Origin: a virus
Lineage: Duplodnaviria > Heunggongvirae > Uroviricota > Caudoviricetes
Strand: one strand, 5' to 3'
IMG/VR virus record: IMGVR_UViG_2917855067_000004
DNA length: 29,767 nt
Each line of letters starts with the position of its first letter. Position 1 is the first letter of the stretch. The notes under the pieces were generated by a model. The model saw nothing but the letters and a program-made list of their open reading frames with translations. It had not been told where the DNA came from and did no database searches. A program made the position numbers and the translations under genes. Below, in pieces: positions 17,032-21,927 of the stretch.

Positions 17032-18801
17032 ATGACCATTTCCACCGATACAACCTTGTTGCATGACCCGCGACGGCAGGCATCGCTGCTTTACTGGCAG
17101 GGTTTTTCCGTGCCACAGATTGCCGAAATGCTGCAGGTCAAGCGCCCGACAGTGCAGAGCTGGAAGCAGCGCGACGGCTGGGACGGCATCGCACCGATTT
17201 CCCGCGTCGAAAGCAGCCTTGAGGCCAGGCTGATTCAGCTCATCGCCAAGCCGCAAAAGTCAGGCGGCGACTTCAAAGAGATTGACCTGCTCGGGCGGCA
17301 GATTGAGCGACTGGCGCGCGTTAACCGCTACAGCCAGACCGGCAACGAGGCCGACCTTAATCCCAATATCGCCAACCGCAACAAGGGCGAGCGCAAGAAG
17401 CCAAAAAAGAACTTTTTCAGCGACGAGGCTATCGAGAAACTGGAGGAACTATTTTTCGACCAGTCTTTCGAGTACCAGTTGCAGTGGTACCGTGCAGGAC
17501 TGGCGCACCGTATTCGCGATATTCTCAAATCCCGTCAGATTGGCGCGACGTTCTATTTCTCCCGCGAGGCGCTGCTGCGCGCGCTCAAGACCGGCCACAA
17601 CCAGATATTTCTGTCGGCCAGTAAAACGCAGGCTTACGTGTTCCGTGAATACATCATCCAGTTTGCGCGACTGGTCGACGTCGACCTGACCGGTGACCCG
17701 ATTGTCATCGGCAACAACGGTGCAAAGCTGATTTTTCTCGGTACCAATTCCAACACCGCGCAGAGCCATAATGGCGACCTGTATGTCGATGAAATATTCT
17801 GGATCCCGAATTTTCAGAAGCTGCGCAAAGTCGCGTCGGGCATGGCCTCGCAAAAGCACCTGCGCTCGACCTACTTTTCGACACCATCAACACTGGCGCA
17901 CGGCGCTTACCCCTTCTGGTCTGGCGAGCTGTTCAACAAGGGGCGCAGCCGTATTGCCGACCGCATCGAAATCGACATCAGCCACAGCGCGCTCGCCGGT
18001 GGTCAGCTCTGCGACGATGGCCAGTGGCGGCAGATTGTCACCATTGAGGATGCCCTTGCCGGTGGCTGCACCCTGTTCGACCTCGACCAGCTCAAACGCG
18101 AAAACAGTGATGAGGACTTTAAAAACCTGTTTATGTGCGAGTTTGTCGACGATAAAGCGTCGGTATTCCCGTTCGAGGAGCTGCAGCGCTGCATGGTCGA
18201 CGTGATGGAGGAATGGGAGGACTTTGCCCCGTTCGCCGACCATCCGTTCGGCTCGCGCCCGGTCTGGATTGGCTACGACCCGTCACACACCGGCGACAGT
18301 GCCGGGTGCGTCGTTCTCGCGCCGCCGGTGGTCTCGGGTGGCAAGTTCCGCATGCTGGAGCGCCACCAGTGGAAAGGCATGGACTTTGCCGCTCAGGCTG
18401 AGGGCATCCGTAAGCTGACCGAAAAATACAACGTCGAATACATCGGCATTGACGCAACCGGCCTCGGTCTCGGCGTGTTCCAGTTGGTGCGCTCGTTCTA
18501 CCCGGCGGCACGCGGCATCCGTTACACCCCCGAAATGAAAACCGCGATGGTGCTCAAGGCAAAAGACACCATTCGCCGTGGTTGTCTGGAGTACGACGCC
18601 GGGGCGACCGACGTCACGCAGTCGTTTATGTCCATCCGCAAAACCATGACCAGCAGCGGGCGCAGCGCCACCTACGAGGCCAGCCGCACCGAGGAAGCCA
18701 GTCACGCCGATATCGCATGGGCGACCATGCACGCCCTGTTAAACGAACCTCTTTCCGCCGGTAGCGGCATGCAGCCTAAATCTATTCTGGAGTTCAACTA
18801 A
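17032..18801 (+). CDS. P: Terminase ATPase (large) subunit P
   Basis: 589 aa; divergent from O as in P2; size matches gpP. Confidence 0.95.
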   Translation: MTISTDTTLLHDPRRQASLLYWQGFSVPQIAEMLQVKRPTVQSWKQRDGWDGIAPISRVESSLEARLIQLIAKPQKSGGDFKEIDLLGRQIERLARVNRYSQTGNEADLNPNIANRNKGERKKPKKNFFSDEAIEKLEELFFDQSFEYQLQWYRAGLAHRIRDILKSRQIGATFYFSREALLRALKTGHNQIFLSASKTQAYVFREYIIQFARLVDVDLTGDPIVIGNNGAKLIFLGTNSNTAQSHNGDLYVDEIFWIPNFQKLRKVASGMASQKHLRSTYFSTPSTLAHGAYPFWSGELFNKGRSRIADRIEIDISHSALAGGQLCDDGQWRQIVTIEDALAGGCTLFDLDQLKRENSDEDFKNLFMCEFVDDKASVFPFEELQRCMVDVMEEWEDFAPFADHPFGSRPVWIGYDPSHTGDSAGCVVLAPPVVSGGKFRMLERHQWKGMDFAAQAEGIRKLTEKYNVEYIGIDATGLGLGVFQLVRSFYPAARGIRYTPEMKTAMVLKAKDTIRRGCLEYDAGATDVTQSFMSIRKTMTSSGRSATYEASRTEEASHADIAWATMHALLNEPLSAGSGMQPKSILEFN

Positions 18802-18802
18802 A

Positions 18803-19849
18803 ATGGGTAAACAAAAATCCCGCAAAGTCGCTGCGCAGAAGGCCAGCAAGCCACAACAACTGACCGCCAGCGCACCGCCAAAAACAACTGCTTTTACCTT
18901 CGGCGAGCCGGTGCCGGTGCTCGATAAGCGCGATATTCTGGATTACGTCGAGTGCATCAGTAACGGCAAATGGTACGAGCCGCCGGTCAGCTTCTCCGGG
19001 CTGGCAAAGAGTCTGCGCTCTGCTGTACATCACAGCTCGCCGATTTACGTTAAGCGCAACGTGCTCGCGAGCACCTACATCCCGCACCCACTGCTGTCCC
19101 GTCAGGATTTCAGCCGCTTTGCGCTCGACTATCTCGTATTTGGCAACGCCTTTCTTGAGCAGCGCCACAGCGTTACCGGTCAGTTAATCAAACTGCTGGC
19201 CTCACCGGCCAAATACACCCGGCGCGGGATCGACGATTCGATTTTCTGGTTTGTGGAAAACTTCACTCTGCCGCATGAGTTCGCGCCTGATACCGTATTT
19301 CACCTGCTGGAGCCCGACATTAACCAGGAGATTTACGGTCTGCCCGAATATCTCAGCGCGCTTAATTCCGCCTGGCTGAATGAATCCGCGACGCTGTTCC
19401 GTCGCAAGTATTATCAGAACGGCGCGCACGCGGGTTACATCATGTATGTGACCGACCCGGCGCAGAGCGCGACCGACGTCGAATCGCTGCGCGAGGCGAT
19501 GCGCAACTCAAAAGGGCTCGGCAACTTTAAGAACCTGTTTTTCTACGCACCCGGCGGAAAACCGGACGGCATCAAAATCGTGCCGCTGAGCGAGGTCGCC
19601 ACAAAGGATGACTTTTTCAACATTAAAAAAGCCAGCGCTGCCGACCTGATGGACGCGCACCGCGTGCCGTTCCAGCTCATGGGCGGCAAGCCCGAGAATA
19701 TCGGTTCACTCGGTGACGTTGAGAAGGTGGCAAAGGTATTTGTGCGTAACGAGCTGTCACCCCTGCAGGACAGGTTCAGGGAGGTAAACGACTGGCTCGG
19801 CATGGAGGTCATCAGGTTCAAAGAGTACACCCTCGACAACCCGGAATAA
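18803..19849 (+). CDS. Q: Portal protein Q
   Basis: 348 aa immediately after P and adjacent to cos, as in P2. Confidence 0.9.
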   Translation: MGKQKSRKVAAQKASKPQQLTASAPPKTTAFTFGEPVPVLDKRDILDYVECISNGKWYEPPVSFSGLAKSLRSAVHHSSPIYVKRNVLASTYIPHPLLSRQDFSRFALDYLVFGNAFLEQRHSVTGQLIKLLASPAKYTRRGIDDSIFWFVENFTLPHEFAPDTVFHLLEPDINQEIYGLPEYLSALNSAWLNESATLFRRKYYQNGAHAGYIMYVTDPAQSATDVESLREAMRNSKGLGNFKNLFFYAPGGKPDGIKIVPLSEVATKDDFFNIKKASAADLMDAHRVPFQLMGGKPENIGSLGDVEKVAKVFVRNELSPLQDRFREVNDWLGMEVIRFKEYTLDNPE

Positions 19850-19857
19850 TCCCCCTC

Positions 19858-19881
19858 AAGCCGCCAGCATGGCGGCTTTTT
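19858..19881 (+). terminator. Intrinsic terminator after Q
   Basis: Hairpin AAGCCGCC-AGCAT-GGCGGCTT followed by TTTTT. Confidence 0.6.
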
Positions 19882-20025
19882 CATACCCCGCCACCATCAC
19901 GCCTCAGACGCGCCACGCGCGCACGACCACACAAGACCACCTACGAACCGACAGCATCCACTACAGCGCCATCACGACGCGCTCAGACGATAATTTTTAT
20001 TATTACGCACCACCGCTGGCGCGCA

Positions 20026-20044
20026 ATGCTTTCCCCGCCACGCC
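20026..20044. other. cos site (19-nt cohesive-end sequence of P2/186 type)
   Basis: The reverse complement reads GGCGTGGCGGGGAAAGCAT, which matches the 186 cohesive end as I remember it (P2 differs at 2 positions); it sits downstream of Q as expected. Confidence 0.75.
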
Positions 20045-20204
20045 TGCCCGCTTTATAGGGCGGTTTTAATGCAGTTGCATGATCACTCTGGATCCGCGCC
20101 AGCTCAGGCGGCGCACGGCCAGAACGGGCCCCCCCGGCGCATGCAAAACCATGCACCTGTTGCATGCACGGCTAAAAAACAGGGAAATCGCGTAAAAATG
20201 GCAT

Positions 20205-20247
20205 AAAAAAAAACCGGCATTCGCGGTGCCGGTTTCGGTCTGATTTT
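20205..20247. terminator. Bidirectional intrinsic terminator (strongest for the minus strand)
   Basis: A9 run, hairpin CCGGCA-TTCGCGG-TGCCGG, then a T-rich run; on the minus strand the hairpin is followed by U9. Confidence 0.6.
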
Positions 20248-20254
20248 GTCGCGA

Positions 20255-20356
20255 TTACTGGCCGCGCAATGCGCTGATAACACTATTGAGGCACATGCTG
20301 GCAACAATCAGCAGAAAAATTGTCGTCCACGGATTTTCATAAACGAGAGATAACAT
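20255..20356 (-). CDS. Hypothetical 33-aa single-TM peptide (MLSLVYENPWTTIFLLIVASMCLNSVISALRGQ)
   Basis: ATG at 20354-20356 with AAAGGA upstream; ~20-residue hydrophobic core; stop TAA at 20255-20257, directly followed by the strong terminator. Below the ORF-track length cutoff; not matched to a known family. Confidence 0.4.
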   Translation of the reverse strand: MLSLVYENPWTTIFLLIVASMCLNSVISALRGQ

Positions 20357-20372
20357 ATTGATATAGATCCTT

Positions 20373-20564
20373 TTATTTGTGCATTCTGATGTGGTTTAAC
20401 AGGTGTTTGATAATGGTCGTAAGCTCATCTTTACTGGCGTGCTCTACCATTTTTGCGGTGTAGCTTTCCACCTCGCGAGAGCTCAGGTCGTTATTTAAAG
20501 CCATTACAGTCAGCTTTTTTGCCCAATCGGCAAATGGGTCTATCGATGAAAGGGAATTATGCAT
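20373..20564 (-). CDS. Hypothetical 63-aa protein (MHNSLSSIDPFADWAKKLTVMALNNDLSSREVESYTAKMVEHASKDELTTIIKHLLNHIRMHK)
   Basis: Internal ATG at 20562-20564 with a GAGG Shine-Dalgarno 9 nt upstream; 16 nt upstream of the 33-aa peptide gene; AT-rich. The 91-aa track form starts at a weaker site. Confidence 0.5.
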   Translation of the reverse strand: MHNSLSSIDPFADWAKKLTVMALNNDLSSREVESYTAKMVEHASKDELTTIIKHLLNHIRMHK

Positions 20565-20995
20565 GTCCAAAAACCTCGAATTATTTAACCAGCAGACGGC
20601 GGAAATCTTTGCGGTGTTATGGGATAACTTCCCGGTGCCACAGGTCATTACCTACGAAAAATTTAAACGCCGCGCTACCTGATGACTACTTTGACCAACT
20701 TAACTCACCGGAAATGAAAGCACTGAATCAGTTGCGCAGTGTGGTTGAGGGTACATTCACTTTTCTCAGTGAAAACGGCTACATCCAGTACGGAACAGAC
20801 CACCAGACCTATTTTTATGATGTGCGCCTGACCGAGAAAGCACTCGCCGTGCTTAACAAAAAGCCCGAGGCGCTCGGCGGTAATGAAACAATGGGCGATA
20901 AGATTATCAGTGCAGTGAAAGACGGGACGCCGGGAGTGATTGCCGGTGCGGTGACAAACCTGCTTACCCTCGGTGTCAATCTGGTAACCAGTTAA
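20563..20995 (+). pseudogene. Frame-disrupted hypothetical gene: 39-aa frame-1 ORF (20563-20682) plus ~105-aa continuation in another frame to 20995
   Basis: ATG 20563 with AAGGGA 7 nt upstream gives MSKNLELFNQQTAEIFAVLWDNFPVPQVITYEKFKRRAT then tandem TGATGA; protein-like sequence continues one base out of frame (LPDDYFDQLNSPEMKALNQ...GVIAGAVTNLLTLGVNLVTS) to a TAA at 20993-20995. Confidence 0.4.
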
Positions 20996-20996
20996 C

Positions 20997-21052
20997 GCCT
21001 CGCGGGGCGTCGTTGTTCAACCCCGTCAGCACTGAAAGCGAGTTTCAGCGCT
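20997..21052. repeat. Structured repeat element R1 (GC stem-loop plus 10-bp hairpin with GCGAG loop)
   Basis: GCCTCGCGGGGCGTCGTTGTTCAACCCCGTC then AGCACTGAAA-GCGAG-TTTCAGCGCT; homologous to R2 about 405 bp away. Confidence 0.5.
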
Positions 21053-21062
21053 GAGACGTTTG

Positions 21063-21272
21063 CTATCGTCGACGTGGTGGAGGTGCGTATTTTGTCGGTC
21101 TGCTGATGCTATCCAGCTTGCCGCAATTATCCCTGACTATTTCGGCACACCCGACCAGCTCGGTGGGTGTCAAATTCTCATTGACCATTATCTGCTGCAG
21201 GCGATGAACGATAGCCATTAACTTAATATTTCTGGTCTGGTGCTGCGGTATTTCACCTGGTAGTCGATGCAT
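21063..21272 (-). CDS. Hypothetical 69-aa protein
   Basis: ATG at 21270-21272 with a GAGGG Shine-Dalgarno 7 nt upstream; lies between R2 and R1; no family recognised. Confidence 0.45.
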   Translation of the reverse strand: MHRLPGEIPQHQTRNIKLMAIVHRLQQIMVNENLTPTELVGCAEIVRDNCGKLDSISRPTKYAPPPRRR

Positions 21273-21401
21273 ATTATCACCCTCAATGAATTTTAATCAG
21301 TGCCGTCAAAACGCCACTATAAAACCCTCTCAGGTCATGCCTCATTCATCACTGGCGTGTCATCAATAGCACATTGAGAAATTTTGAAAGGCAGGACTAA
21401 A

Positions 21402-21455
21402 GCCTCGTGGGCTCGTTACTCAACCCCGTCGACGCAAAAAGCTAGTTTTTGCGCC
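21402..21455. repeat. Structured repeat element R2 (homologue of R1; hairpin with GCTAG loop)
   Basis: GCCTCGTGGGCTCGTTACTCAACCCCGTC then GACGCAAAAA-GCTAG-TTTTTGCGCC; stem differs from R1 by base changes that preserve pairing. Confidence 0.5.
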
Positions 21456-21471
21456 AACACGGTTATCATGT

Positions 21472-21702
21472 TTAACGCCAGCTATCGTCTTCCCAAATCT
21501 CTTGTAATATGCCGCTTAATGTTTCTTTGTCTGCTTCTTTATCGAATCCGATAACCTCTACACCAGTCATTGACCCTTTCTTGACGTTAACTTTTATTGC
21601 AGGAAAAACGCATTGTACTCGATGTGTTATTTCATTCTGAAAAGCATCAATGATCTGTTGCCCTAATTTTTGTTCTTTATCCAACGTGATATTGATTCTC
21701 AT
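21472..21702 (-). CDS. DinI-family protein (likely the C-terminal part of a Tum-like SOS-inducible antirepressor)
   Basis: 76 aa MRINITLDKEQKLGQQIIDAFQNEITHRVQCVFPAIKVNVKKGSMTGVEVIGFDKEADKETLSGILQEIWEDDSWR resembles E. coli DinI (MRIEVTIAK...ILQETWE) from memory. Confidence 0.8.
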   Translation of the reverse strand: MRINITLDKEQKLGQQIIDAFQNEITHRVQCVFPAIKVNVKKGSMTGVEVIGFDKEADKETLSGILQEIWEDDSWR

Positions 21703-21705
21703 AAT

Positions 21706-21888
21706 CTAATCAGCCTTATAAAAATTATCATCTTCGGTTTCGTTATTCTCGCTGTTTGCTAGGTCTGCAATGAGAGTGAGCGCGAGCTTTAAGTCTGATG
21801 GCTTGCAGTTTGCAATCAGAGATACCTCGGCAATAAATTGCACACAAGCCCACTTTTGCTGCGTTCGGCTGAAATGTTCGTCAACCAT
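21706..21888 (-). CDS. Hypothetical 60-aa protein, first gene of the LexA-box operon (possible Tum N-terminal part)
   Basis: ATG at 21886-21888 with AGGAGG 6 nt upstream; ends at a TAG that is in frame with, and one codon before, the DinI-like ATG. Confidence 0.55.
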   Translation of the reverse strand: MVDEHFSRTQQKWACVQFIAEVSLIANCKPSDLKLALTLIADLANSENNETEDDNFYKAD

Positions 21889-21907: not shown

Positions 21908-21927
21908 TACTGTATGTTTATACAGTA
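21908..21927. promoter_or_regulatory. LexA operator (SOS box) upstream of the orf60/DinI-like operon
   Basis: TACTGTATGTTTATACAGTA: CTGT-N8-ACAG with palindromic flanks, about 20 nt upstream of the orf60 ribosome-binding site. Confidence 0.8.

What the first reader, a model, noticed from the sequence alone, without database searches (positions are those of the whole stretch)
20255..20564. Two-gene module: 63-aa hydrophilic protein followed by a 33-aa single-TM peptide and a strong terminator
Both genes have recognisable ribosome-binding sites and are 16 nt apart. The distal product, MLSLVYENPWTTIFLLIVASMCLNSVISALRGQ, is a single hydrophobic helix and is followed by a hairpin plus U9. The layout resembles small membrane-toxin, superinfection-exclusion or abortive-infection modules, but that role is inference only. 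The peptide gene is below the ORF-track cutoff and would be missed by standard annotation.
Basis: partly seen in the sequence, partly recalled or inferred. Interest (0 to 1): 0.7.

Follow-up and report, generated by a model that had tools for sequence, protein, structure and literature searches.

The report
Conserved small membrane peptide in prophage
A 33-codon gene for a single-helix membrane peptide, mostly unannotated, sits beside the DNA-packaging (cos) site of a 186/P2-type prophage; it is real and conserved, but it is not tied to the 63-residue gene next to it, and its function is unknown.

Summary
On the minus strand there is a 63-aa ORF (20564-20373), a 16-nt spacer with a ribosome-binding site, a 33-aa ORF (20356-20255), and a hairpin plus U9 (20236-20201).

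The window is a 186-like prophage. The module lies in the known cos-proximal accessory hotspot, 165 bp from cos. It sits at the 3' end of the LexA-controlled tum/dinI unit, and its terminator is in the place of 186's t95b.

The peptide ORF is conserved at exactly 33 codons across Escherichia, Salmonella, Klebsiella and Enterobacter prophages. Purifying selection acts in its own frame (omega about 0.28). It has one predicted transmembrane helix with invariant polar residues. RefSeq annotation usually misses it and calls an opposite-strand shadow ORF instead.

The "two-gene toxin module" reading is only partly supported. The peptide occurs without the 63-aa gene. The 63-aa gene occurs with a decayed peptide in about 29% of loci. 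The 63-aa gene is instead always paired with a divergent 143-aa winged-helix-like gene, which is frameshifted in this window.

No homology or fold evidence assigns a function to any of the three. The most likely reading is an accessory inner-membrane peptide of a prophage. This is a new member of a known kind, of modest interest.

The parts
20255..20356 (-). 33-aa single-TM peptide gene (MLSLVYENPWTTIFLLIVASMCLNSVISALRGQ)
   Evidence: ORF. Same length and start in more than 45 loci. Omega of about 0.28 in its own frame, p = 9e-16. Kyte-Doolittle mean 2.17 over residues 12-30. Present in the public protein collection as unnamed or hypothetical proteins of Salmonella, E. coli and Klebsiella.
20357..20372 (-). 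16-nt spacer holding the peptide's Shine-Dalgarno sequence (AAGGA, overlapping the 63-aa stop codon)
   Evidence: Spacing is 15-16 nt in every locus that has both genes. Homology with SEN1-type loci, which lack the 63-aa gene, begins exactly here at ATAAAAGGA. The SD is mutated (AAAATGA, CAGAGA) in lineages where the ORF is decaying.
20373..20564 (-). 63-aa soluble protein gene, PHROG family phrog_2454 (unknown function)
   Evidence: Matches phrog_2454 at E = 9e-38 over its full length. Homologues are found only in Enterobacterales P2-family prophages, with no Pfam domain. Only 12 representative clusters match among 1.84 billion proteins. AlphaFold2 gives a three-helix bundle at pLDDT 76. No informative fold match.
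20201..20236 (-). Intrinsic terminator (10-bp stem plus U9), positional homologue of phage 186 t95b
   Evidence: Pattern scan and fold. The stem is invariant and the loop variable across phages. The 186 record annotates t95b, the 'p95 transcript terminator', at the same distance from cos with the same downstream sequence.
20563..20995 (+). Divergent 143-aa gene (phrog_2266), frameshifted in this window by an extra A at 20665-20667. Its ATG overlaps the 63-aa ATG within CATG at 20562-20565.
   Evidence: ORFs of 39 aa plus the remainder in another frame. The Midge orthologue matches phrog_2266 at E = 3.4e-61. All relatives, including 99.9%-identical L114, read TTTAACGCC where the window reads TTTAAACGCC. 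The gene, or its first-19-codon remnant, accompanies every 63-aa gene. The model has pLDDT 79 and only weak winged-helix-like matches, with best E = 0.05.
20026..20044 (-). cos cohesive-end sequence (GGCGTGGCGGGGAAAGCAT, the 186 type as I recall it)
   Evidence: One exact match, none in shuffles. The ends of the SEN1 and Midge phage records map here.
21003..21061 (-). Junction element (long hairpin plus GGGGTTGAACAACGA) bounding the cassette. A second, diverged copy lies at 21406-21464.
   Evidence: Direct repeat, 71% identical. A hairpin of about 16 bp, with 6 pairs kept through changes on both sides across 7 copies from 6 phages. The same element directly precedes the peptide in SEN1 and precedes t95b in 186.
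21910..21925 (-). LexA box CTGTATAAACATACAG upstream of the tum-like gene (the p95 equivalent)
   Evidence: Palindromic CTGT-N8-ACAG match. The 186 record annotates a LexA site in p95 at the equivalent place.
21063..21888 (-). Upstream genes of the same transcription direction: tum-like 60 aa (21888-21706), DinI 76 aa (21702-21472), 69-aa phrog_11386 (21272-21063)
   Evidence: ORFs, PHROG matches, and annotations of related phages.

Best explanation
The 33-codon ORF is a genuine, conserved gene for a single-pass inner-membrane peptide. Its topology is probably N-terminus out and C-terminal Arg in.

It is the last cistron before the t95b-type terminator. That terminator closes the cos-proximal accessory unit, which in this phage begins at a LexA-controlled promoter and encodes tum and dinI. 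The peptide is an anchored accessory (moron-type) gene at the cos edge of the P2-family hotspot. It is not half of a toxin-antidote pair with the 63-aa gene.

The 63-aa three-helix protein belongs to a separate cassette with the divergent 143-aa winged-helix-like gene. That cassette is inserted between a hairpin junction element and the peptide.

Inferred mechanism: the peptide is made when transcription reads in from the 63-aa gene or from the SOS operon. It inserts into the inner membrane. It then acts through its conserved polar helix face (T11, T12, S20, C22, N24, S25, G28) and its YENPW juxtamembrane motif, either by self-association or by binding a membrane protein. The effect would be to perturb or block a membrane process, with superinfection exclusion or damage-triggered membrane perturbation as the leading options.

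Shown: the gene is real, it is conserved, it has TM character, it is separable from the 63-aa gene, and its genomic position is as described. Inferred: transcription, topology, mode of action and phenotype.
For: Gene reality:
- Fixed ATG, stop and 33-codon length in 47 of 58 regions.
- Omega of about 0.28, p = 9e-16, the best of six frames.
- pN/pS of 0.29-0.35.
- Amino-acid changes are conservative (V/I, L/M, A/T/V), while YENPWTT, C22, L23, N24, S25 and R31 are nearly fixed.
- Hydropathy fits one TM helix.

Anchoring at cos:
- The ORF lies directly upstream of the conserved terminator and cos in 186-type phages and in phages with a P2-type A protein, whatever cargo lies upstream.
- It is the most conserved block of the region, on a par with the cos core.

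Separability from the 63-aa gene.

Link to the SOS unit:
- A perfect LexA box lies before tum.
- All genes from tum to the peptide are on one strand, and no canonical terminator was predicted until 20236 except one weak 5-bp candidate at 20877-20865.
- 186 annotates p95, tum, orf97 and t95b in the same layout, and notes that orf97 'blocks 186 infection' when expressed from a plasmid.
- In the related prophage BTP5, the tum transcript is the most highly expressed prophage transcript (PMC7067206).

Hotspot identity: the gpA-to-gpQ region next to cos is the documented P2 anti-phage hotspot. The E. coli 64-aa and 145-aa orthologues are listed there as 'hypothetical' (PMC9122126).
Against: - There are no transcription or translation data for this ORF in any strain. 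The model strains checked do not carry it.
- No consensus promoter was found for the 63-aa or 33-aa genes.
- The SD-to-ATG spacing of 11 nt is long.
- The ORF is dead or replaced in 15 of 52 loci that keep the 63-aa gene, and phage 186 lacks it entirely. It is therefore dispensable, and selection on it is weak or conditional.
- The codon-position test on the unbiased set is not significant (p = 0.13).
- Part of the DNA conservation may reflect hitch-hiking with the cos flank, and part of it comes from how loci were collected, since the search pattern lies inside the ORF.
- Nothing ties the peptide to any particular membrane target or phenotype.
Confidence: 0.45

Rival explanations
1. Two-gene toxin-antitoxin or abortive-infection module. 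The 33-aa peptide is a membrane toxin and the 63-aa protein neutralises it.
For: The two genes are adjacent on one strand, 16 nt apart, in most loci. The peptide is small and hydrophobic like Hok, TisB or DinQ. It lies in a prophage hotspot rich in defence genes. The peptide is often inactivated while the 63-aa gene survives, which is the usual decay order for a toxin and its antidote.
Against: An intact peptide with intact SD occurs with no 63-aa gene in SEN1-type loci and L011, and with only a 3' remnant of that gene in P2-type loci. That would be lethal for a true toxin without its antidote. Neither protein matches any TA or defence family in Pfam, NCBIfam or PADLOC. At most 3-9 peptide residues are exposed to the cytoplasm, so a soluble binder has little to hold (inference).
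Confidence: 0.1
2. Three-gene system. The 143-aa winged-helix-like protein, the 63-aa protein and the peptide act together. This could be a regulator or sensor plus a membrane effector acting in defence or counter-defence. It could also be a face-to-face transcriptional switch, in which SOS read-through turns the 63-aa and 33-aa genes on and the 143-aa gene off.
For: The 143-aa gene, or its remnant, accompanies every 63-aa gene. The two start codons overlap within CATG, so each promoter must lie inside the other gene. The 40 nt upstream of the 63-aa ATG stay identical even where the 143-aa gene is deleted. The 143-aa model has a winged-helix-like core and a hydrophobic C-terminal helix. In most sampled loci all three genes are present.
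Against: The 143-aa gene is cleanly deleted in SW9-type and TW10598-type phages, which keep an intact 64-aa gene and peptide. It is frameshifted in this window. The peptide occurs without the other two genes. Fold matches are below significance, with best E = 0.05. There is no PADLOC hit.
Confidence: 0.15
3. The ORF is a conserved but functionless passenger. The cos-proximal flank is kept for packaging or as a recombination arm for cargo exchange, and the open frame survives only because of that.
For: The block is as conserved as the cos core, including many synonymous sites at its 5' end. The ORF has decayed in many lineages and is absent from 186 without loss of phage viability. No expression evidence exists.
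Against: Substitutions are strongly skewed to synonymous changes in this frame only. Start, stop and length are kept across genera at 75% nucleotide identity. 186 packages its DNA without this block, so cos function does not need it. The spacer between the ORF's stop and the terminator diverges freely.
Confidence: 0.15
4. The real gene is the 65-90-aa ORF on the plus strand that PGAP and some phage annotations call across this region, and the 33-aa ORF is its shadow.
For: It is annotated in the RefSeq E. coli loci inspected and in phages Midge, SEN1 and SW9. It is listed as WP_001177885 in the hotspot table of PMC9122126.
Against: It is broken into 38-aa and 35-aa pieces in this window. Its length and start differ between records. 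It runs through the terminator hairpin. Omega in the antisense frames is 0.47-1.45, against 0.28 for the peptide frame.
Confidence: 0.03

Closest known systems
SOS operon of coliphage 186 (p95-tum-orf97-t95b; Brumby et al. 1996, as annotated in NC_001317)
   Same: Same place between gene A and cos and same strand. A LexA box lies before tum. The terminator sits at the same distance from cos and has the same downstream sequence. The same hairpin junction element is present.
   Different: 186 has orf97 and no peptide. This phage has dinI, a 69-aa gene, the 143/63-aa cassette and the 33-aa peptide instead. Read-through to the peptide is inferred, not shown.
cos-proximal anti-phage hotspot of P2-like phages (old/tin locus; Rousset et al. 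2022, PMC9122126)
   Same: The module lies between gpA and gpQ next to cos. In relatives it sits beside retron RT, Fic and other cargo. The 64-aa and 145-aa orthologues appear in that paper's hotspot table as 'hypothetical'.
   Different: The peptide is not swapped like cargo. It stays fixed at the cos edge in different phage lineages. It has no defence-domain match and is not in that catalogue, because it is unannotated.
LexA-regulated small membrane toxins TisB and DinQ, and type I toxins in general (established knowledge)
   Same: A single hydrophobic helix of about 30 residues, and a possible SOS link through the upstream LexA box.
   Different: No sequence similarity. No antisense RNA or promoter was detected. 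The SD is ordinary and exposed. The peptide has a conserved polar motif rather than a charge zipper. Toxicity is untested.
Small regulatory inner-membrane proteins that bind larger membrane proteins (MgrB, AcrZ, MgtS, MgtR; established knowledge)
   Same: Size, single TM helix, and conserved polar or small residues inside the helix (N24, S25, G28, A29), consistent with helix-helix packing.
   Different: No homology, no known partner, and prophage-borne rather than chromosomal.
PHROG families phrog_2454 (63 aa) and phrog_2266 (143 aa)
   Same: Full-length HMM matches.
   Different: Both families are annotated 'unknown function', so membership gives a name but no mechanism. The peptide matches no PHROG convincingly (best E = 0.18).

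Membership tests
phrog_2454 (63-aa protein) | Full-length match to the family HMM | tested here: met
   E = 9e-38, residues 1-63 against profile positions 1-64 of 64.
phrog_2266 (143-aa protein) | Full-length match to the family HMM and an intact reading frame | tested here: inconclusive
   The Midge orthologue matches at E = 3.4e-61. The window copy is 93% identical over residues 32-143 but carries a +1 frameshift at 20665-20667.
Intrinsic terminator / 186 t95b homologue | G+C-rich hairpin followed by a U tract, at the position of t95b relative to cos | tested here: met
   10-bp stem plus U9. The stem is conserved in all phages aligned. 186 t95b lies at the equivalent distance from cos with the shared downstream sequence TTTTTTTATGCCA.
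186-type SOS operon | LexA operator in the promoter upstream of tum | tested here: met
   CTGTATAAACATACAG at 21910-21925, just upstream of the tum-like ORF.
186-type SOS operon | One transcript running from p95 to the terminal terminator that includes the peptide | not testable with these tools
   All genes except the 143-aa gene are on the same strand, and no strong terminator was predicted in between. No RNA data are available.
Type II-like toxin-antitoxin pair | Obligate co-occurrence of the two genes | tested here: not met
   The peptide occurs without the 63-aa gene (L005, L011, L015, L017, L019, L042 and others). The 63-aa gene occurs with a dead or replaced peptide in 15 of 52 loci.
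Type II-like toxin-antitoxin pair | Homology to a known toxin or antitoxin family | tested here: not met
   No Pfam, NCBIfam or PADLOC hit above threshold.
Type I toxin (Hok/TisB/DinQ-like) | Small hydrophobic single-TM peptide | tested here: met
   Kyte-Doolittle mean 2.17 over 19 residues, against 2.5-2.85 for TisB, DinQ and HokB.
Type I toxin (Hok/TisB/DinQ-like) | Antisense RNA gene overlapping or adjacent to the toxin mRNA | tested here: inconclusive
   No Rfam family. No consensus promoter on the plus strand in the window. A promoter-like site on the opposite strand at the peptide's 5' end appears in L015 and L017 but points away from the ORF.
Type I toxin (Hok/TisB/DinQ-like) | Toxicity or membrane depolarisation on expression | not testable with these tools
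   This needs an experiment.
Known anti-phage defence systems (PADLOC-DB 2.0) | Match to a defence-system protein model | tested here: not met
   The only hit is PtuB at E = 0.0056 and 14 bits for the 63-aa protein. The peptide and the 143-aa protein have no hit.
Holin / lysis-cassette membrane protein | Located in the lysis gene cluster, with a charged C-terminal tail | tested here: not met
   The gene lies at the opposite end of the genome map from the late and lysis genes, next to cos. The C-terminal tail is only RGQ.

The most novel reading that the evidence does not exclude
The peptide is a prophage-encoded, DNA-damage-triggered membrane effector. It would be a phage counterpart of TisB or DinQ, made from the 3' end of the LexA-controlled tum operon. 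It would depolarise or remodel the inner membrane, either to time induction or to exclude or abort incoming phage. Its expression would be gated by a face-to-face transcriptional switch with the divergent 143-aa winged-helix gene.
Probability: 0.12. Interest if true: 0.6.

Novelty: new member of a known kind. Interest (0 to 1): 0.33.

Why it matters
The peptide family is carried by P2/186-type prophages of E. coli, Salmonella, Klebsiella and Enterobacter; four of its sequence variants are each recorded on more than 900 contigs. It is nevertheless absent from RefSeq annotation and from the published catalogues of the P2 defence hotspot. Those sources list an opposite-strand shadow ORF in its place.

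Correcting this changes how the cos-side boundary of that hotspot is drawn. It also adds a small, testable membrane protein to the accessory repertoire of these prophages.

If the peptide proves to be SOS-driven and membrane-active, it would link prophage induction to membrane physiology. If it has no phenotype, it is a clean example of a conserved small ORF that hitch-hikes on a packaging-site flank.

Tried and rejected
- **Family searches.** Pfam, NCBIfam, PADLOC and PHROGs gave no function for any of the three proteins.
- **Solved structures, by sequence.** PDB searches with the 63-aa profile, the 143-aa profile and the peptide found nothing with E < 0.4.
- **Exhaustive profile search.** The 63-aa family has only 12 representative clusters and no distant annotated relative.
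- **Peptide homology search.** I replaced it with an exact cluster look-up and a DNA pattern scan.
- **Rfam.** No family reached its gathering score. The 'Thr_leader' match over the ORF and terminator (E = 0.43) is chance, and there is no downstream gene to attenuate.
- **Paralogy.** The idea that the 63-aa and 69-aa proteins are paralogues was rejected (hhalign probability 0.2%).
- **Internal hairpin.** A hairpin plus U5 inside the 5' end of the peptide ORF (20346-20323) was rejected as a structure. The common ACG-to-ACA synonymous variant breaks a C-G pair.
- **Literature.** Searches for the peptide or 63-aa sequence motifs returned no papers.
- **Expression data.** I looked for a model strain with Ribo-seq or RNA-seq that carries the locus. 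O157:H7 Sakai and EDL933 were not among the 60 of 76 carriers listed (16 records were not shown), and no model strain with such data turned up.
- **Complex prediction.** AlphaFold prediction of a 63-aa/33-aa or 143-aa/63-aa complex was not possible, because the tool takes single chains from the window only.

Full report
**Setting**

The window is a 186/PSP3-like member of the P2 family.
- On the plus strand lie the terminase (17032-18801) and portal (18803-19849) genes. They are followed by a terminator and by the 19-nt cohesive-end sequence GGCGTGGCGGGGAAAGCAT at 20026-20044. That is one exact match with none in shuffles. That this is the 186-type sequence is from my memory. It is supported by the SEN1 and Midge phage records ending at this point.
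- On the minus strand, reading towards cos, lie replication gene A (24296-22002), a perfect LexA box (21910-21925), a tum-like 60-aa gene, dinI, a 69-aa gene, the finding itself, and a terminator.
- Phage 186 has the same layout, annotated as p95 (LexA-controlled), tum, orf97 and t95b.
- The gpA-to-gpQ interval next to cos is the published anti-phage hotspot of P2-like phages (PMC9122126).

**The observation**

- The 63-aa ORF runs 20564-20373.
- A 16-nt spacer with AAGGA follows.
- The 33-aa ORF runs 20356-20255.
- A 10-bp hairpin at 20236-20210 is followed by U9.

The hairpin folds at -14.7 kcal/mol. The z-score against shuffles is only -1.35. Its identification as a terminator therefore rests on the pattern, on its invariant stem across phages, and on its correspondence to 186's t95b.

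**Is the peptide a gene?**

The same ORF, with the same start and 33 codons, is present in phages Midge, FSL SP-004, SW9, SI22 and SEN1, and at 75% nucleotide identity in Klebsiella phage ST147-VIM1phi7.1. The Klebsiella record annotates it.

A degenerate DNA pattern for YENPWTT found it in 45 of 47 viral-contig hits. Exact look-ups place the window's peptide and its variants in three clusters of 32, 4 and 55 sequences. These come from Salmonella, E. coli and Klebsiella. Four of the listed variants are seen on more than 900 contigs each, and all are unnamed or 'hypothetical'.

Substitutions favour this frame.
- pN/pS is 0.29 in the pattern-derived set and 0.35 in a set collected without reference to the peptide.
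- On a minimum spanning tree of 38 intact alleles, 47% of changes are non-synonymous against 76% expected. This gives omega of about 0.28 and p = 9e-16.
- The next-best frame is the antisense 'shadow' frame, at omega 0.47.
- The simple count of variable sites by codon position is significant only in the biased set. In the unbiased set it is 15/14/25, p = 0.13.

Residues 12-30 have a Kyte-Doolittle mean of 2.17. Applying the positive-inside rule (established knowledge), the acidic N-terminal nonapeptide should face out and Arg31 should face in. YENPWTT, C22, L23, N24, S25 and R31 are nearly fixed, while the hydrophobic positions vary conservatively.

**Annotation**

RefSeq/PGAP omits the peptide in every E. 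coli locus I opened. It often calls a 65-90-aa ORF on the other strand that runs through the terminator. That ORF is split in this window and has higher omega. It appears as WP_001177885 in the hotspot table of PMC9122126, alongside the 64-aa and 145-aa orthologues, all labelled 'hypothetical'.

The peptide-terminator block is in 99 of 5426 complete E. coli genomes. The block including the 63-aa gene is in 60.

**Are the two genes a module?**

They are syntenic, but they are separable in both directions.

Peptide without the 63-aa gene:
- In SEN1-type loci (L005, L019, L042), homology starts exactly at the peptide's ribosome-binding site. What lies upstream is the hairpin junction element.
- L011 has unrelated upstream sequence.
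- Phages with a P2-type A protein (L015, L017 and relatives) keep only the last 20 or so codons of the 63-aa gene, plus a 334-aa cargo gene on the other strand.

63-aa gene without a working peptide, in 15 of 52 loci:
- Start-codon loss in L077, L078, L085, L092, L095 and L098.
- Heavy decay in L109.
- W10 changed to a stop, with loss of the SD, in Serratia (L058-L060).
- Frameshifts or a premature stop in L076, L083 and L107.
- Replacement by a 69-aa-like gene in L104 and L108.
- E. coli 4/1-1 shows the same decay.

Phage 186 lacks the peptide altogether.

**The real partner of the 63-aa gene**

Every 63-aa gene is accompanied on the other strand by the 143-aa gene (phrog_2266) or by its first 19 codons. 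The two ATGs share a CATG.

In SW9-type and TW10598-type phages the 143-aa gene is deleted cleanly between the junction element and a point 55 nt upstream of the 63-aa ATG. The proximal 40 nt remain identical to the window. This suggests a promoter or leader for the 63-aa gene there (inference).

The 143-aa protein is 88-94% conserved in Klebsiella and Serratia, where the 63-aa protein is only 62-69% conserved.

In this window the 143-aa gene carries an extra A at 20665-20667. That insertion is absent from all relatives, including a 99.9%-identical contig.

**What the proteins look like**

- The 63-aa protein belongs to phrog_2454, of unknown function. It has no Pfam domain. Only 12 representative clusters match among 1.84 billion proteins.
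- It is predicted as a three-helix bundle at pLDDT 76, with only generic helical matches. It is not basic (8 K/R, 8 D/E).
- The 143-aa model (pLDDT 79, pTM 0.73) has a helix-strand core that weakly resembles winged-helix proteins such as MukE, MarR, ArsR/HlyU and SSV1 F-93. The best E is 0.05 and none reaches 0.001. It also has a hydrophobic C-terminal helix.

**How it most likely works**

What is shown:
- The peptide is a conserved single-TM small-protein gene fixed at the cos edge of the hotspot.
- It is the last ORF before the t95b-type terminator.
- It lies on the same strand as a LexA-controlled tum-dinI unit.
- No canonical terminator is predicted in between, apart from one weak 5-bp candidate.

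What is inferred:
- The peptide is translated from read-through of that unit, or from a weak promoter before the 63-aa gene.
- It inserts N-out/C-in.
- It acts by helix-helix association, either with itself or with a membrane protein. Asn and small-xxx-small motifs in TM helices favour such packing (established knowledge).
- The outcome could be exclusion of incoming phage DNA or membrane perturbation during SOS.

The precedent at this exact position is 186 orf97, which blocks 186 infection when expressed from a plasmid. In the related prophage BTP5, tum is the most highly expressed prophage transcript (PMC7067206).

My confidence for each step is about:

| Claim | Confidence |
|---|---|
| The ORF is a real gene | 0.85 |
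| It is separable from the 63-aa gene | 0.9 |
| It is co-transcribed with upstream genes | 0.5 |
| It has an exclusion or membrane-perturbing role | 0.3 |

**Rivals**

- A 63/33 toxin-antitoxin pair is unlikely, because an intact peptide exists without the 63-aa gene.
- A three-gene system with the 143-aa protein remains possible. It is weakened by clean deletions of that gene and by peptide-only loci.
- A functionless hitch-hiking ORF is not excluded, given the frequent decay. It conflicts with the frame-specific excess of synonymous change.

**Verdict**

The finding is an uncharacterised but ordinary kind of prophage accessory gene. Its practical value is in correcting annotation and in offering a small, easily tested candidate.

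Noticed in passing
window 21003-21061 and 21406-21464 (minus strand); also L010 2838-2912, L005 325-405, L002 775-855, L009 2925-3005, L004 2300-2375: A junction element of about 60-75 nt, repeated twice in the window at 71% identity. It forms a hairpin of about 16 bp, kept through compensatory changes (6 pairs changed on both sides among 7 copies). A conserved GGGGTTGAACAACGA follows, with no U tract. It sits after dinI and after the 69-aa gene. In 186 it sits after orf97, and in SEN1 directly before the peptide, so it marks cassette boundaries in the SOS operon. It could be an RNA processing or stability element, or a recombination joint. There is no Rfam match.
   Followed up: partly
window 20563-20995 (+), insertion at 20665-20667: The divergent 143-aa gene (phrog_2266) is frameshifted by one extra A (TTTAAACGCC against TTTAACGCC in all relatives, including a 99.9%-identical contig). 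This is either a recent inactivation or a sequencing error.
   Followed up: yes
window 20562-20565: The start codons of the 63-aa gene (minus strand) and the 143-aa gene (plus strand) overlap within the palindrome CATG. Each gene's promoter and leader must therefore lie inside the other's coding region. This face-to-face arrangement could give mutual transcriptional interference.
   Followed up: partly
window about 20069-20353 (+); L007 2381-2578, L008 2377-2646, L001 44-316: Annotation pipelines call a 65-90-aa ORF on the plus strand. It starts near cos, runs through the terminator hairpin, and lies antisense to the peptide. It is broken in this window and shows no coding signal, so it is probably a shadow-ORF artefact. 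It has nevertheless propagated into RefSeq and into published hotspot tables.
   Followed up: yes
window 19850-20025; L007 644-2223, L059 4752-5347, L112 6549-7553: The short interval between the portal gene and cos is a second cargo site in relatives. It holds a P-loop NTPase plus a hypothetical gene in E. coli E66, HicA/HicB in Serratia, and a 334-aa gene in a near-identical contig. It is empty in this window.
   Followed up: no
window 21910-21925: A perfect palindromic LexA box, CTGTATAAACATACAG, lies immediately upstream of the tum-like gene. This equivalent of 186 p95 marks the phage as SOS-inducible through an antirepressor.
   Followed up: partly
L004 2437-3404, L008 3432-4668: In Klebsiella phage ST147-VIM1phi7.1 and in E. 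coli O157:H7 FRIK strains, a reverse transcriptase with an HTH protein lies directly beyond the 143-aa gene. The conserved 143/63/33 block therefore stays on the cos side while defence cargo is inserted on the gene-A side.
   Followed up: no
L015 709-736 and L017 5571-5598 (+); equivalent to window about 20358-20390 (+): A promoter-like site on the opposite strand (TTGATA, 16 nt, TG-TACATT) uses the peptide's SD-to-ATG spacer as its -35 region and points into the upstream cargo. It is strong in the P2-type loci and weaker in the window (TGCATT). This could explain part of the nucleotide conservation around the peptide's start.
   Followed up: no
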